NCBI GenBank assembly: GCA_001938485.1
Contig: MQRK01221314.1
Span: 20,675 to 84,674 of the forward strand
Source: Girardia tigrina
Taxonomy: Eukaryota
DNA length: 64,000 bases
Reading direction: 5' to 3'
Positions 47,465 through 53,400 of this stretch are shown here, piece by piece (positions within the stretch are counted from its first letter, which is position 1; the number at the start of each line of letters is the position of its first letter). Position numbers: made by a program.

Positions 47465-50400
47465 TATGCCAAATTCGTTAATCCAGTAAATGTTTGCCAA
47501 ATTTACGAACTCGGCAATTTTTAAAAAGAAATTTTTAATTCAATTATGAAATTGATATTATATTTAATATGAAAAATTGTATTTAATATAAAAAATGTCA
47601 TTTTAATATTAAAAAAATTTTTTTAAAATACATGCGTTTGCAATTCGGCTTGTCATGACGGAAGACGTTTTAACCACTATGAATGAAAATTTGAGATTTT
47701 GAGTATATTTTACACATTAAATTAAGATATTTTTCATATTTAATTTATATTTTTCATATGAAATTGATAATTTTTCATATTTAATACATATCTTTTTCAT
47801 ATTAAAGTGAAATTTTTTGATATAGATATCTAATTCTGCAAACACTGACTAGTACATGAATTCGGCAAAGTATATATACAATAGCGTACAAAAGTCTGTG
47901 GACCGTAAAAAAATCATAATTTTTTCCATTTAGTTAATAGGGTGGCAAGCCTAAATATGTAAAAAACCATATATGTAATTTCTATAAGCTTTTATGGTAA
48001 ATAAATCTTTTTTTTTAATTTTGTTAATATTTTGTATGACGAACATTCCATTTTCAAATTTTTACAAATGCAAAAGTCTGTGAATAATTCCTAATTAAAA
48101 TGAAAATTTGTCAAAAATAGATGGAAATTGTAAACTTTATTAATATTTGTAGCATTTTGGTGTATGCATATGTACATATATATTGGAATGTAATATTGTC
48201 AGAAACAGAAAAGTTGAATAAAGGCAAAAATTTACGAAAAAAATCTTAAATCGTTGACTCTACTTCTGTGGAGTGTAGACGTCGTAGGTGCTCAATTTTT
48301 TAAGAACATTTCCTTCTTGTCGGAATTTATCTGCAAATGTATCAAATTAAAGTGGCTGTCGTTAGCACAATCTACATTCCAAGAGCCAAACATCTAATGA
48401 TCACACAACTCGAAGCAACTTAACATTTTGATATTTTTACTACACGTTTTTGACGAACATTCATTTTTTTGTAATCGTGTTTAAAAACTTTGATTTTTCT
48501 TCCTTTTATTTTGTTCTTTGTTTTAATAGTTCATAATACATATTTTTAAACTAAATATTTATTTCATATAAATGAACTTTGACGGATATTAGTTACCTTC
48601 CAACTTCCTTTTTTAATTATTATTTATTTTAAACATATTCAACTGAAAAGAATTTTTAATAAATTCGTATTGAAAATATTAGGGTGAACCAAGTCTTCGT
48701 ATTTTTTATTAAAAATTTTAACATAATTTTACAACAAATACAAAACATTTAAGTGTCAAAGTAAAGGCCATTTGAATCTATAGCTTGAACCCATCTATGG
48801 GAAAGTTGTGCGATCCCGCTGCGGTACCAATCCTTGTTCTTAGTAGCGAAGAACTGGTGACACCCTTTTTCGACCTCGGCCAGATTATTGAAGCTGCGAC
48901 CACGAAGAAAGTGTGACATAGAGCGGAAAAGGTGATAGTCGGATGGCGCAAGATCCGNNNNNNNNNNNNNNNNNNNNNNNNNNNNNNNNNNNNNNNNNNN
49001 NNNNNNNNNNNNNNNNNNNNNNNNNNNNNNNNNNNNNNNNNNNNNNNNNNNNNNNNNNNNNNNNNNNNNNAAAGCAGGGTATTTCTCGCCAAGTGCCGCA
49101 TACATTCGATCAAGTTGGGCGCAGTAAAGGTCAGCGTCGATGGTACGACCATTTGGAACCAGCTCGAAGTGAATCACGCCATCGAAATTCCACCAAACGC
49201 ACAAAAGTGTCTTCCATAAAGAAACGATCTTCTTTTGCTACCGGTTTCGCCCTTTGTCCGGGGTCCAACCATTGATTTTGTTGGTTTGAATTACAGAAGT
49301 AAACCCACTTTTCATCGCAAGTTACAATTCGACTGATGAAACGGTCATTGCGCGGATTTTCAAGCAATTTTCGACAAGTTTCGAAACGCTTTTCGGCTTG
49401 AATTTGTGTCAATTCATGAGGCACTTCTCGACATCGTCTATTGACCTTACCAAGAGCGTGAAGATGTTGTAAAATGGATGTTTGAGGAATATCGATTTCG
49501 GCTGACAATCTGCGAGTACTTTTTGACGGATTTGTCTCGACGGCTTCATGAATTGCTCCGGAATCTACGGTGATAGGTCGGCCTGAAACGTCTTAGAGGT
49601 CAATATCGCTTTCGTTGAACCTTGTGAACCAATTTTGTGCAGTACGATTTGAGACCACATTATCGCCTTCAACTTCACATATCTTCTTTGTTGCTGCAGT
49701 TGCGTTTAAGCCCTGTTTCCAGTAATGGCGTAAAAGAACACGAATTTCAAAATTTTCCATGATTTTTCTAAAAGACCTTAAAAATTATATTAACGACTAA
49801 TTAGAAGTTTTAATATATATTGTGATAGAGCAGTTTAAGAGCTTTAAAAAAATATAACACATGCATACAAAATATCTTTATTTGGTAATAAGTGTGAAAT
49901 ACTAATCCCGTCTGTTTTGTATATGGATTACTTTTTCTTTTGTGGTTAGATGAGGGAATGAGTATTTGTTTTGGTTTGGCTTAAGTGTTAATTGTACAAA
50001 GTCTTAATCTCATTAGTTTTATTTTTGTGCNNNNNNNNNNNNNNNNNNNNNNNNNNNNNNNNNNNNNNNNNNNNNNNNNNNNNNNNNNNNNNNNNNNNNN
50101 NAAGAAACTATACAGTTTGAAAATGTAGAAGTTCAAAATGTTATTCACTTCAGGAGTTTTAGGACAACATTTATATAATCTAGTGATTGCTAAAATGCCG
50201 TTATCGGACAGTGATTATTTCGATTTGGAATTTATTAATAAAGAAGGTGTATCGTGTTGGTTGGAGCATCCGAAACAATTAGTCAAACAGTGTACTCAAA
50301 AGAAAAAATACATTTTTCAACATGATGAATATACAAGGTATCTGTCTGCGTTTCAAATCAAGAGAGATATATACCAGGGACTTCTGAAATGTGATCTACT

Positions 50401-53400
50401 CACCACAGCGTTTATCAGATTTGATGAAGTAGCAAAGCTTCTCTTTTCCTCAAGAAAGTATACCTTTAGCGGTGATTATATTATGTGAGCAAATTGCTGA
50501 AGACATTAACAAAACTAAAATCAATAAAATAATAACGATTAAAAATATACAAATTAATTAATTACTTACCGAGTATTTTGAGCTTGTTAGACATTGTTCT
50601 CTCTAATAAAAGTTTCTATCAAATGCACGGGTTACCTTTATCATTTTATTTATTAATTTTCTTTTGTTATTTACTTTGGTTGTAATTACGTTAAGAAAAC
50701 GTTATAATTTTTATTTATTTGTTAGTAAAATTTGTTATTCCACCATTTTCGGAATAATAACTTTTACAATAAGAAACAATTGAACAAAAAGACGTAGAAA
50801 ATACGAAAAGACTTTTGGTTCACCCTAATATCATAAATCATTCATACATCAAACTACTAAAGTTTAGTCATAGATGTCAAAGATATATATTCTTGTCAAG
50901 GGTTTTTTCTTTAATGGAAATTGTCTCTTTGATTTCGACTCATACTTTTAGTTAGCTTTCCTTCATAAAAACACAGAATGAAGAATGTTTGTTAAAATAT
51001 GAATTTGTACTTAGTATTGTTCTAGAAAATTAGTTTTTGAAAAATCTGACATGGAGGAAGACAAATGTCAAATACCTAAAACCGAACATTGAAAGGATAA
51101 TAGAAGTAAATCGGTAAACTACAGAGATTATAAATGCCGTCGGGGAAAATACTTTTAGGAGATGAATTAATTACAGTTGTACGTAAATCCCTTGAAGAAC
51201 TTTGAATACGGATATATTACAAGAGACCAGAGATAATAACTTTTAAATCTTGTGAAGATCTTATTTGTCACTGGCAGTTCTTCTACCTTTTTCTTCTATA
51301 TCTTTTGTCACCTCTCAAATTATCTGATCTTTTTTGTTGCTAATTGTTTAAACTTTGTAAAATTTAGGTTAAACTTTTTAAATGAAATTCGAAAAAGAAT
51401 TCCTAAAAGATTTAAATTATCATTATAAGAATGGCAAAAATATTTATTTTGTAAAATACTGAAACAGGCTTCCGTTGGAATGGTCGAGACCTGTTAAATC
51501 TGGACAACAAAGTCTTGAAAAGAGGACAGTCCTTATTCAACATTTCCATGCCTATGAGAATATTCCCGCATCAGTCTCCTCATTTAGTGATTCCAGGTTT
51601 GATGCATTATTGTACTGTTTGGATCAACTAATGTAAATGATTAGCTTTTCAGAATGTTGCCATCATCATTTTACTTTTTGTCTTATTTATTTCATTATGT
51701 CTCCAAATATTATTCTTTGCCATTCGAAGCCGCAGATGGACAATTCCAGATCCTATAATATGTAATTTATAATATCTTTTGCCCAATCAATTGATACCTA
51801 CCTTTAGATGTCAAGGAGAAGCAGTGTCTCATGGTTGTTATCTTTTTTTATTTTATTAGAATTTTATTTTTTAACGATAATATACTTTTGAACGATAATA
51901 AAAGATCTTTTTTATAGGAATTTTAAAATTTCCCATAACTGTTTGCTTAAAATGCAAACTAATTATCTAACCCTTCCATAGTTATGATGACATAGTTACA
52001 GCTAAAGAGTATTCGTTTCTAAAACATTTGGTGTGTGTTCAATTTTTCAGTAAATACAAAGCGAATGATCAATGTTAGTGTCGAATGCAGTTGGCACACC
52101 TTCTGAATTAGTAGAATCAGACATTTTGCTAAAATCTATTTTATCACACCCTTTTTGAAACTCAGTTAAAAAACACATATTTAAACAAAATTATTTTTAT
52201 GTTGAGGAACTTTCTTTTTTATAAAATTAAAACCGGAATAAATTATAATTATTTAAAAAATAAATATTCACATTTATTTAAAAATTTTCCTTTCCTTAAA
52301 CATTTCTTTTTTCAAATACTTTCACCTTCAAATTGCCAATTAAGTTTTTAAAGTCTTATCTTTTTTTAATCATTCCTTATTTATTTTATTTACACTTTAC
52401 ACTTTCAATGATTTATTTGTTTACTTTCCACATTTTTCAAAACTTTTCTACCTGGTTACTGATCTCTTAAACGTTACCATTATTTAGCAACGTTTACATA
52501 AAAATTTAAAATTAATTAAAACATTATACAACAATTTTTAGCAAGTACTTTGGGATAAATCATCAATTATGGTCATCATTTCCACAGAAATATTCATTTT
52601 TGACCCTAGTCATTGAATTCAGGGGTCAGGAAGGAAAAAGGAAGGCACTAACACCAACAACCAATCAGCGAAGGAACCTTTCCGGAAAATATATATTGAC
52701 TTCTTATTGATTATTCAAAAGAAATATAAATGAATATATTTGCAATAATTGACCAGATTAGTAGATAAATTAGTCTGAATGCAGCAGCTAGTCAAGATAA
52801 AAAACAGATAGAAAATTGCTATTGGATAGATGGATATGGAAATTCAGACAACCAAAAGAAATACATGTAGATAGAGGTAAAACATTTAAATCGGCTATGT
52901 CCAAAGACACGGTGAAAAAGTTCAAAGTTGAGGTATTCTATTCAAGTCCATATCATCATAACACAAATGGAATCGTGGAAAGACAATTGCTACGATCAGA
53001 GATACGTTGAATATTAGAATGAAGGATGGAGATCATAAAAATTGGACAGAAGTCGAGTTTATGTTAAATAGCTACGACAGGCATGTCACCATCCGAGGTA
53101 GTATTTGGAAGAAAACTGAGACATTGGTGGTAAACAATCACGAAGATAACAAAAATTTGATAGATGTTCAACAAGAAATAGAGACAAGAAGAATTTTGAA
53201 GTTGGAGACAAAGTATTGATAAAAAAGGAAAATGTCTCAAAAGAAGATGACCGTTACATAGGTCCCGCAACAGTGATGAGAAGAAATCATGAAAGAAGCT
53301 ACGTGCAAAGAGATGCAGGAATATAATTTTCAATGACTTTAATTATTGTTTAAATAATAAATAATTATATTATAAATAGAATTTTATGATTTATTCTTAT

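What the first reader, a model, noticed from the sequence alone, without database searches (positions are those of the whole stretch)
49893..50768. LTR-like element carrying a captured FERM-domain fragment, nested in a mariner
Seen: TG..CA ends with a perfect ATAAG TSD sit inside the 5' UTR of a mariner, and removal restores a ~1270-bp mariner. Inside is a FERM N-lobe fragment lacking the VKFxPPDP segment. Inference: a non-autonomous pack-type element mobilising host gene pieces; the deletion may reflect a skipped exon (RNA intermediate). Caveat: an N gap at 50031-50101 lies inside, though the matching TSD and TIRs argue the join is real.
[Added by the scan's program, not by the reader: the finding's places include an assembly gap (unread letters, written N; its length is only estimated) at 50031 to 50101. 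Whether the letters on both sides are continuous or in frame is not known: test that first.]
Basis: partly seen in the sequence, partly recalled or inferred. Interest (0 to 1): 0.65.

Follow-up and report, generated by a model that had tools for sequence, protein, structure and literature searches.

The report
Farp gene fragment inside nested transposon
A decayed mariner transposon in a planarian-like genome was hit by a roughly 0.9-kb insertion with retrotransposon-style ends that carries a dead piece of the host's Farp (FERM-domain) gene; it is one ordinary-looking case of mobile DNA carrying host DNA, and whether it belongs to a mobile family could not be tested.

Summary
A mariner lies on the minus strand at 48679-50828, with TA duplications and matching inverted ends. 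It is interrupted 55 nt from its 5' end by an insertion at 49893-50768 that contains 71 N. The insertion is flanked by ATAAG; the repeat is really 6 bp (AATAAG), so the "CA" end depends on which register is chosen. The ends read TGTGA...TTACA and fit the TGTNR pattern of Gypsy LTRs and Ginger elements.

The cargo (about 50147-50413, plus strand) is a FERM_N fragment. Its closest relative is Dugesia japonica Farp, residues 34-149, with 70% identity in ungapped columns. It is cut short on both sides and has an in-frame 13-residue deletion.

The gap does not affect the reading. FERM homology starts 45 nt to the right of the gap and no frame crosses it. Physical continuity across the gap cannot be tested here.

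"LTR-like" rests only on the ends and the duplication. I found no second LTR, no TIR, no other copy in the window, no close copy of the ORF in the two protein sets searched, and no RT or integrase nearby. "Pack-type family" is untested. A clean skipped exon is not supported: the cargo's 5' edge sits on an inferred intron position and keeps an acceptor-like motif.

Interest is low to moderate.

The parts
48677..48678 (.). TA target duplication of the mariner, left side
   Evidence: Read directly. Its partner lies at 50829-50830.
48679..49892 (-). Mariner, 3' inverted end through most of the 5' UTR. It contains the assembly gap 48958-49070.
   Evidence: Inverted ends 48677-48708 against 50795-50830 match 86% over 36 nt. 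Pfam HTH_48 and Transposase_1.
48752..49760 (-). Mariner transposase gene, broken: 1 frame change and 1 in-frame stop counted. An unread gap lies inside it, so the count is a lower bound.
   Evidence: tblastn of P0091 (341 aa) covers 339 of 341 residues in 2 pieces at 75.5% identity.
49888..49892 (.). Left copy of the target duplication ATAAG (6 bp AATAAG if counted from 49887)
   Evidence: chance estimate.
49893..50768 (+). The nested insertion, with ends TGTGA...TTACA. Its length is uncertain because of the internal gap.
   Evidence: Unique within the window.
49893..50030 (.). Left arm, 138 nt, 30% GC, no coding signal, no similarity to the right arm
50031..50101 (.). Assembly gap (71 N, length estimated). 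Left unfilled.
50102..50153 (+). Non-homologous, intron-like stretch ending in an acceptor-like motif (pyrimidine-rich run plus CAG, ending at 50153)
   Evidence: No homology in any frame. Such motifs occur at 1.56 per kb, giving about a 3% chance of one within 21 nt.
50147..50413 (+). Farp-derived FERM fragment (relatives' residues about 34-137). It is cut short on both sides and has one in-frame 13-residue deletion. 34% GC.
   Evidence: Pfam FERM_N. PDB best hits are FARP2 and FARP1 FERM domains. Dugesia japonica Farp. Profile limits. GC.
50138..50488 (+). 116-aa open frame that contains the FERM fragment and runs on into non-homologous sequence
50414..50768 (.). Right arm, 355 nt, 25% GC, no Pfam match
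50725..50767 (+). Hairpin at the very 3' end of the insertion (17-nt arms, 9-nt loop)
   Evidence: Folds at -8.2 kcal/mol, z -3.46; 1 of 200 shuffles folds as well.
50769..50773 (.). Right copy of the target duplication ATAAG
50774..50828 (-). Mariner, outermost 55 nt of the 5' end including the inverted end

Best explanation
This is one old, dead, composite insertion. It was put into the 5' UTR of an already resident mariner by a retroviral-type (DDE) integrase, the enzyme class that leaves 4-6-bp duplications and needs TG...CA ends. It is most likely a solo LTR or an LTR-bounded chimeric copy of an LTR retrotransposon. Its middle carries about 270 nt of the host's Farp gene, covering the later part of FERM lobe F1 and the start of F2. 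I infer that this was picked up when reverse transcription copied a read-through or incompletely spliced Farp transcript and switched templates back to the element's own RNA. The cargo cannot make a FERM domain and has no evident function.

Shown: the nesting, the duplication, the end motifs, and the identity and limits of the cargo. Inferred: the enzyme class, the RNA route and the order of events. No family of such elements has been demonstrated.
For: The flanking repeat is 5 bp, extending to 6 bp, with chance 0.002 or 0.0006. Both ends fit TGTNR, with an empirical chance of 8.3e-5 for both together. [quoted passage not shown] The two contigs around the gap therefore describe one event.

The cargo is Farp: Pfam at E 2.5e-8, FARP2 and FARP1 as the best solved structures, and Dugesia japonica Farp at E 2e-33. 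No other Farp exon lies in the 64 kb; the other HSPs have E of 3.7 or more. The fragment is therefore ectopic.

A partial host transcript inside retroelement sequence, with no poly(A), matches the chimeras described in PMC5131818 (passages). The acceptor-like motif at the homology start and the inferred intron position there fit a read-through or pre-mRNA template.
Against: The left arm (138 nt) has no direct or inverted match in the right 667 nt above shuffles: 171 of 300 and 96 of 300 shuffles reach the observed scores. There is therefore no LTR pair within what is read.

No other copy of either arm lies in the window. No close copy of the ORF turned up in the near-length search or the representative set. 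No RT, integrase or gag domain was found in the 43 of 51 ORFs of at least 75 aa that were scanned.

The 'CA' end depends on choosing the 5-bp register. The end motifs were judged after the fact. The terminal hairpin is not explained by this model. The gap may hide more sequence than estimated.
Confidence: 0.42

Rival explanations
1. A chimeric retrocopy made by a non-LTR (LINE-type) reverse transcriptase at a nicked target. The right arm, with its terminal hairpin, would be the 3' tail of a LINE or SINE. The enzyme would then have switched template to nuclear Farp pre-mRNA and copied part of an exon and the upstream intron.
For: The 3'-terminal hairpin resembles the 3' stem-loops that some LINE reverse transcriptases recognise (recalled). 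The breakpoint falls inside the exon at the 3' side and an intron end is kept at the 5' side. There is no LTR or TIR structure. Short duplications also occur with LINEs (recalled).
Against: There is no poly(A) or simple-repeat tail at either end. TGTNR at both ends would be coincidence, at 8.3e-5. The right arm recurs nowhere else in the window apart from one 44-nt AT-rich match at 79.5%.
Confidence: 0.15
2. A non-autonomous cut-and-paste DNA transposon, which is the reader's 'pack-type' element, that took up a genomic Farp exon with part of its intron. It might be mobilised by an integrase-related transposase of the Ginger2/TDD kind or by an unknown superfamily.
For: TGTNR ends and 4-5-bp duplications are reported for Ginger2/TDD elements (PMC2836005 passages). 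The cargo keeps an intron-like flank with an acceptor-like motif. Transduplication by a DNA transposon is reported in an animal, C. elegans Turmoil-1 (PMC2572040, search listing only).
Against: Ginger elements have TIRs of about 40-270 bp. Here the terminal 60 nt share no inverted similarity above chance; 243 of 300 shuffles reach the observed score. No second copy was seen.
Confidence: 0.15
3. No transposition took place. A break in the mariner was repaired by copying an ectopic template, such as a Farp pseudogene region, through microhomology-mediated template switching. AATAAG would be the microhomology used on the way out and on the way back.
For: This is a single copy with no TE structure inside. 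AATAAG is a common kind of word in a genome of 30.5% GC.
Against: It needs the same 5-6-nt word at both switch points with no loss of mariner sequence, and TGTNR at both ends by chance.
Confidence: 0.08
4. An assembly artefact. Either the two sides of the gap do not belong together, or the gap hides kilobases, for example the interior of a full-length element. In that case the described 876-bp unit does not exist as such.
For: A 71-N gap of estimated length lies inside the insertion. The left contig ends in a T-rich low-complexity run. A further gap lies in the mariner body.
Against: Both contigs break the mariner at the same point with a shared 5-6-bp word, and the mariner parts sum to 1269 bp. 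That would be an unlikely coincidence for unrelated contigs.
Confidence: 0.1

Closest known systems
LTR-mediated retroposition chimeras (Tan et al. 2016, PMC5131818; passages read)
   Same: A partial host transcript embedded in retroelement sequence, with no poly(A). The capture is often truncated, and breakpoints can fall anywhere in the mRNA.
   Different: Those cases are flanked by recognisable, discontinuous LTR retrotransposon sequence with both LTRs. Here no LTR pair or retroelement coding sequence is seen, and the cargo seems to keep an intron end.
Solo LTR of a Gypsy-type retrotransposon
   Same: TGTNR...YNACA ends, a 5-bp duplication, sub-kilobase size and nesting in another transposon.
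   Different: No related LTR is available for comparison. A host coding fragment inside an LTR is unusual.
Pack-type transposons and transduplication (Pack-MULE and similar in plants; Turmoil-1 in C. elegans, PMC2572040, listing only)
   Same: Host gene fragment, apparently with intron sequence, between short element ends.
   Different: Those elements have long TIRs and superfamily-specific duplications (9-10 bp for MULEs, recalled) and occur as families. None of this is shown here.
Ginger2/TDD DNA transposons (PMC2836005; passages read)
   Same: TGTNR termini and 4-5-bp duplications in AT-rich targets.
   Different: They need TIRs of 50-180 bp, which are absent here.
FARP proteins (FERM, RhoGEF and pleckstrin domain proteins)
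   Same: The cargo aligns best to Dugesia japonica Farp and to the FARP2 and FARP1 FERM structures 6d21, 6d2k and 6d2q.
   Different: Only about 100 of roughly 1400 residues are present, with an internal deletion. No FERM_M, FERM_C, DH or PH parts are present.
Mos1-like mariner elements
   Same: About 1.27 kb, TA duplication, about 30-nt inverted ends, HTH_48 plus a DDE transposase of about 341 aa.
   Different: This copy is broken and carries the nested insertion.

Membership tests
LTR retrotransposon / solo LTR | 5'-TG...CA-3' (TGTNR) termini | tested here: met
   TGTGA at the start and TTACA at the end, chance 8.3e-5. 'CA' holds only with the 5-bp register.
LTR retrotransposon / solo LTR | 4-6-bp target site duplication | tested here: met
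   ATAAG, or AATAAG, on both sides.
LTR retrotransposon / solo LTR | A matching second LTR, or other copies of the same LTR in the genome | tested here: inconclusive
   There is none within the insertion or the 64-kb window. No genome of this organism was available.
LTR retrotransposon / solo LTR | gag/pol coding sequence, PBS and PPT (full-length elements only) | tested here: not met
   No Pfam match in the arms. No RT, integrase or gag in 43 of 51 ORFs of at least 75 aa in the window. These features are not expected for a solo LTR.
Pack-type (transduplicating) transposon | Several copies sharing termini with an autonomous element, each with its own duplication | not testable with these tools
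   It is single in the window. The ORF has no close copy in the near-length search or the representative set. No eukaryotic DNA collection was open.
Pack-type (transduplicating) transposon | Terminal inverted repeats | tested here: not met
   First 60 nt against last 60 nt, inverted: observed score 12 against a shuffle mean of 12.9.
Pack-type (transduplicating) transposon | Cargo copied from a host gene at the DNA level (introns kept) | tested here: inconclusive
   An acceptor-like motif sits at the homology start, at an intron position inferred from 5 short records. The parent locus was not available, and an internal intron suggested by 3 records is absent from the cargo.
Ginger2/TDD | TIRs of about 50-180 bp | tested here: not met
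   the criterion comes from PMC2836005.
Helitron | 5'-TC...CTRR-3' ends, insertion into AT with no duplication, 3' hairpin | tested here: not met
   The ends are TG...CA with a 5-6-bp duplication. Only the 3' hairpin is present. The criteria are recalled.
Penelope-like element | Hammerhead ribozyme in the terminal repeats | tested here: not met
   Rfam gave 0 matches at E up to 1 over 49700-50900. The criterion is recalled.
LINE-mediated processed pseudogene | 3' end of the parent mRNA with a poly(A) tail | tested here: not met
   The cargo is 5'-proximal coding sequence (residues about 34-137 of about 1412) and there is no A-run at either end.
FERM domain (cargo) | Pfam FERM_N above the gathering score | tested here: met
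   34.1 bits against 22.7, profile positions 15-63 of 64.
FERM domain (cargo) | A complete three-lobed domain (FERM_N, FERM_M, FERM_C) | tested here: not met
   Homology covers only Farp residues 34-149 at most. The profile ends at ORF residue 95.
mariner (host element) | TA duplication, short inverted ends, HTH plus DDE transposase | tested here: met

The most novel reading that the evidence does not exclude
The insertion is one member of a flatworm family of small integrase-mobilised elements that pick up host exons together with bits of intron. That would be an animal counterpart of the plant pack-type elements, propagated through an RNA or integrase route. Its terminal hairpin would be part of the recognition signal.
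Probability: 0.12. Interest if true: 0.5.

Novelty: new member of a known kind. Interest (0 to 1): 0.27.

Why it matters
Host gene fragments carried inside mobile elements are well documented in plants. They are reported only sporadically in animals: the abstract of PMC2572040 (listing) calls transduplication unknown in animals before its C. elegans case. PMC5131818 describes LTR-mediated chimeras in flies, mosquito, fish and birds. Two full-text searches found no paper on this in planarians: 'planarian' plus 'transduplication' gave 0 papers, and 'flatworm' plus 'retrocopies' plus 'LTR' gave 1 paper, on rotifers. A verified family would add flatworms to the list and would offer a route for exon shuffling in a repeat-rich genome. 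As it stands, this is a single decayed copy in a gapped draft assembly with no sign of function.

Tried and rejected
1. By eye, the frame-3 peptide left of the ORF seemed to continue the FERM homology up to the gap. A profile built from 52 homologues gave negative scores for all 9 other-frame or upstream peptides. In 16 shuffle tests (4 peptides against 4 relatives), none had fewer than 59 of 500 shuffles reaching the observed score. I rejected the idea: the homology starts at about 50147.

2. I tried the second mariner in the window (about 17.1-18.2 kb) as a comparator for the empty site. It is too divergent at the DNA level, with only chance-level matches.

3. An LTR pair or TIR within the insertion was rejected.

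4. tRNA-derived SINE, ribozyme or other known RNA: 0 tRNAs and 0 Rfam matches.

5. Helitron, Penelope-like element and classical processed pseudogene each fail defining features (see the membership rows).

6. A donor-like splice site at the 3' end of the homology: none with at least 4 of 6 matches to the usual donor motif lies in 50380-50470. The homology also fades about 8 codons before the intron position inferred from relatives. The 3' breakpoint therefore lies inside the exon.

Those inferences rest on the sequences alone.

That collection holds bacteria and archaea only and cannot contain the copies sought.

9. I made no structure prediction, because it would not bear on the question.

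Full report
THE GAP FIRST. The window has six N runs. One (50031-50101, 71 N) lies inside the finding, and another (48958-49070, 113 N) lies inside the surrounding mariner. I left both unfilled. In the frame of the FERM piece, an in-frame stop lies between the right edge of the gap and the open frame 50138-50488. A profile built from 52 homologues detects FERM homology only from ORF residue 7 (about nt 50147) onward, and gives negative scores to all 9 peptides from other frames or from upstream. 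In 16 shuffle tests of the upstream peptides against four relatives, none had fewer than 59 of 500 shuffles reaching the observed score. No reading frame or homology therefore crosses the gap, and the cargo lies wholly in the right-hand contig. Whether the two contigs are physically continuous cannot be tested with the tools at hand. The only argument is indirect and is given below.

THE HOST ELEMENT. A mariner lies on the minus strand from 48679 to 50828, with TA on each side. Its ends match as inverted repeats, 86% over 36 nt. Pfam finds HTH_48 (E 5e-15) and Transposase_1 (E 6.7e-13). A search with a 125-aa piece returned 26 proteins among 80 candidates, mostly 341-aa transposases; the best is P0091 at 82% identity. 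P0091 aligns over 339 of its 341 residues in two pieces at 75.5% identity, with one frame change and one in-frame stop counted. The unread gap lies inside the gene, so that count is a lower bound. The window comes from an AT-rich genome, 30.5% GC. The nearest relative of the cargo is from a triclad planarian, so I take the source to be planarian-like. Nothing suggests human sequence.

THE INSERTION. ATAAG stands at 49888-49892 and again at 50769-50773. Between them the sequence begins TGTGA and ends TTACA. The repeat actually extends to six bases, AATAAG at 49887-92 and 50768-73. The final A can therefore belong to the element (5-bp duplication, CA end) or to the duplication (6 bp, AC end). 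From the window's composition, a flanking repeat of 5 or 6 bp has a chance of 0.0020 or 0.00057. TG with CA has a chance of 0.0034, and the longer pattern TGTNR with YNACA has a chance of 8.3e-5. It also leaves a 5' UTR of about 187 nt. Both are normal for mariners, from my recall of Mos1. Each contig breaks the mariner at the same point with a shared word. That is the indirect evidence that the two sides of the gap belong to one event.

WHAT THE INSERTION LACKS. The left arm (138 nt) has no direct or inverted similarity to the right 667 nt above dinucleotide shuffles. Direct: score 22 against a mean of 22.4, with 171 of 300 shuffles reaching the observed score. Inverted: score 24 against 22.5, with 96 of 300. 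The terminal 60 nt, inverted: score 12 against 12.9, with 243 of 300. There is thus no LTR pair and no TIR beyond TGT/ACA.

Neither arm recurs in the window. BLAST finds only self-hits plus one 44-nt AT-rich match at 79.5%. The terminal 25-mers, allowing up to 5 mismatches, hit only themselves. Five short ORFs in the right arm have no Pfam match. Rfam gives 0 matches and ARAGORN 0 tRNAs. Of the 51 ORFs of at least 75 aa in the window, 43 were scanned, and none matched reverse transcriptase, integrase, protease or gag. The 8 not scanned are overlapping alternative-frame or gap-containing ORFs.

One positive feature is unexplained. A hairpin with 17-nt arms ends one base before the 3' terminus. 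It folds at -8.2 kcal/mol, z -3.46, and 1 of 200 shuffles folds as well.

THE CARGO. Pfam FERM_N matches ORF residues 8-56 at E 2.5e-8, 34.1 bits against a cut-off of 22.7, covering profile positions 15-63 of 64. Among solved structures the best matches are the FERM domains of FARP2 (6d21_A, E 7.1e-9; 6d2k_A) and FARP1 (6d2q_A), ahead of band 4.1, PTPN21 and the ERM proteins.

The 'longer' protein search returned 3 proteins among 50 candidates. The best is 'Farp protein [Dugesia japonica]' (P0001, 1412 aa, E 2.9e-30). tblastn places its residues 34-149 on 50147-50443, with 69 of 116 identical and 17 gap positions, E 2e-33. That is 70% identity in ungapped columns. No other part of Farp is found in the 64 kb; the other HSPs have E of 3.7 or more. 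This is therefore not the Farp locus.

The exhaustive representative search found 87 proteins at E up to 0.001, 9 at up to 1e-10 and none at up to 1e-30, with a best identity of 51%. The near-length search found 1 protein among 2 candidates, at 43%. Neither protein set therefore contains a close copy of this ORF.

The internal deletion is real and measures 13 residues. Of 85 homologues whose alignment spans the site, 65 show a gap of at least 10 residues there (39 of them exactly 13), and 81 show at least 10 query-side gap residues overall. The 4 exceptions are fragmentary or distant records. By alignment to the FARP2 structure and from recalled FERM architecture, the cargo lacks the first strands of lobe F1 and the last strand with the F1-F2 linker, and it stops early in F2. 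It cannot form a FERM domain. GC is 34% in the homologous stretch against 25-30% in the arms.

DNA OR RNA ORIGIN. The parent locus is not available, so I looked at where fragmentary database proteins start, stop or turn into unrelated residues. Five short records (P0004, P0006, P0014, P0016, P0022) begin or change exactly where the window's homology begins. This implies a conserved intron position there. In the window that point is preceded by a pyrimidine-rich run plus CAG ending at 50153. Such motifs occur at 1.56 per kb on this strand, which gives about a 3% chance of one within 21 nt. The 5' edge therefore looks like an intron-exon junction copied unspliced.

A second inferred position lies where five records end or diverge, with read-through residues that fit a donor site. 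It sits about 8 codons beyond the point where the window's homology fades. No donor-like motif lies nearby. The 3' breakpoint is therefore inside the exon.

A third possible intron, suggested by 3 records (P0012, P0016, P0041) but absent in 3 others (P0004, P0006, P0014), would lie inside the captured stretch, and the window reads straight through it. If the triclad parent has that intron, the template was partly spliced RNA. If it does not, the evidence fits DNA or RNA equally.

The 13-residue deletion straddles, rather than coincides with, the one junction suggested there by a Macrostomum gene model. A clean skipped exon is therefore not supported.

MECHANISM. The best-supported reading is an insertion made by a retroviral-type integrase. 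[quoted passage not shown] LTR elements making 4-6-bp duplications is recalled knowledge.

The cargo pattern matches the LTR-mediated chimeras of PMC5131818 (passages): a partial host transcript, no poly(A), and a breakpoint inside an exon. There, reverse transcriptase switches between element RNA and host RNA at short similarities. An intron end at the 5' edge fits a read-through or incompletely spliced template.

The weak points are the missing LTR pair, the lack of any related copy, the register-dependent CA, and the gap.

The rivals are as follows. A LINE-type template-switch chimera explains the hairpin and the absence of LTR/TIR structure, but not the ends. Microhomology-templated repair is a further possibility. 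So is an assembly fault.

COMPARISON AND NOVELTY. The phenomenon is known: transduplication and LTR-mediated retroposition. The abstract of PMC2572040 (listing) records how rarely it has been reported in animals. Two full-text searches found nothing on it for planarians: 0 papers, and 1 unrelated paper on rotifers. The library excludes most subscription journals, and supplements were closed, though none was needed for these claims. I file the finding as a new member of a known kind, with membership in any one family unproven.

VERDICT. 'LTR' and 'pack-type family' are unproven. 'Skipped exon' is not supported. Interest is low to moderate.

Noticed in passing
window 17118-18194 (minus strand): A second, unrelated mariner copy. 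Pfam Transposase_1 (E 1.8e-16) and HTH_48 (E 8.6e-11) fall in separate ORFs, so it is also broken. It has no useful DNA similarity to the mariner of the finding.
   Followed up: partly
window 2827-3588, 9403-10224, 22706-22939, 40859-41509 (plus strand): ORFs with Laminin G and EGF/teneurin-EGF matches suggest exons of a large extracellular-matrix or adhesion gene on the plus strand. The mariner may lie in or just beyond it.
   Followed up: no
window 11099-13412 (plus strand), next to the N run 11584-11633: An ORF with weak homeodomain-like HTH matches (HTH_32, HTH_23, HTH_29, all below gathering) is followed by ORFs of 182 and 388 aa with no Pfam match. This may be another transposase-like element.
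   Followed up: no
window 50725-50767: A significant hairpin sits exactly at the 3' terminus of the insertion (z -3.46). None of the transposon models considered accounts for it well.
   Followed up: partly
protein P0012 (database record, 188 aa): A Dugesia-like record is identical to D. japonica Farp downstream. It carries a diverged version (8 differences in 71 residues, counted by eye) of the same exon region that is captured in the window. It also has unrelated N-terminal residues and a 4-residue insert at the inferred exon junction. A duplicated or alternative copy of this exon may exist in Dugesia.
   Followed up: no
window 8336-9307, 38881-39738, 57550-58116: Long ORFs (323, 285 and 188 aa) with no Pfam match at E up to 0.001. 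Their nature is unknown.
   Followed up: no
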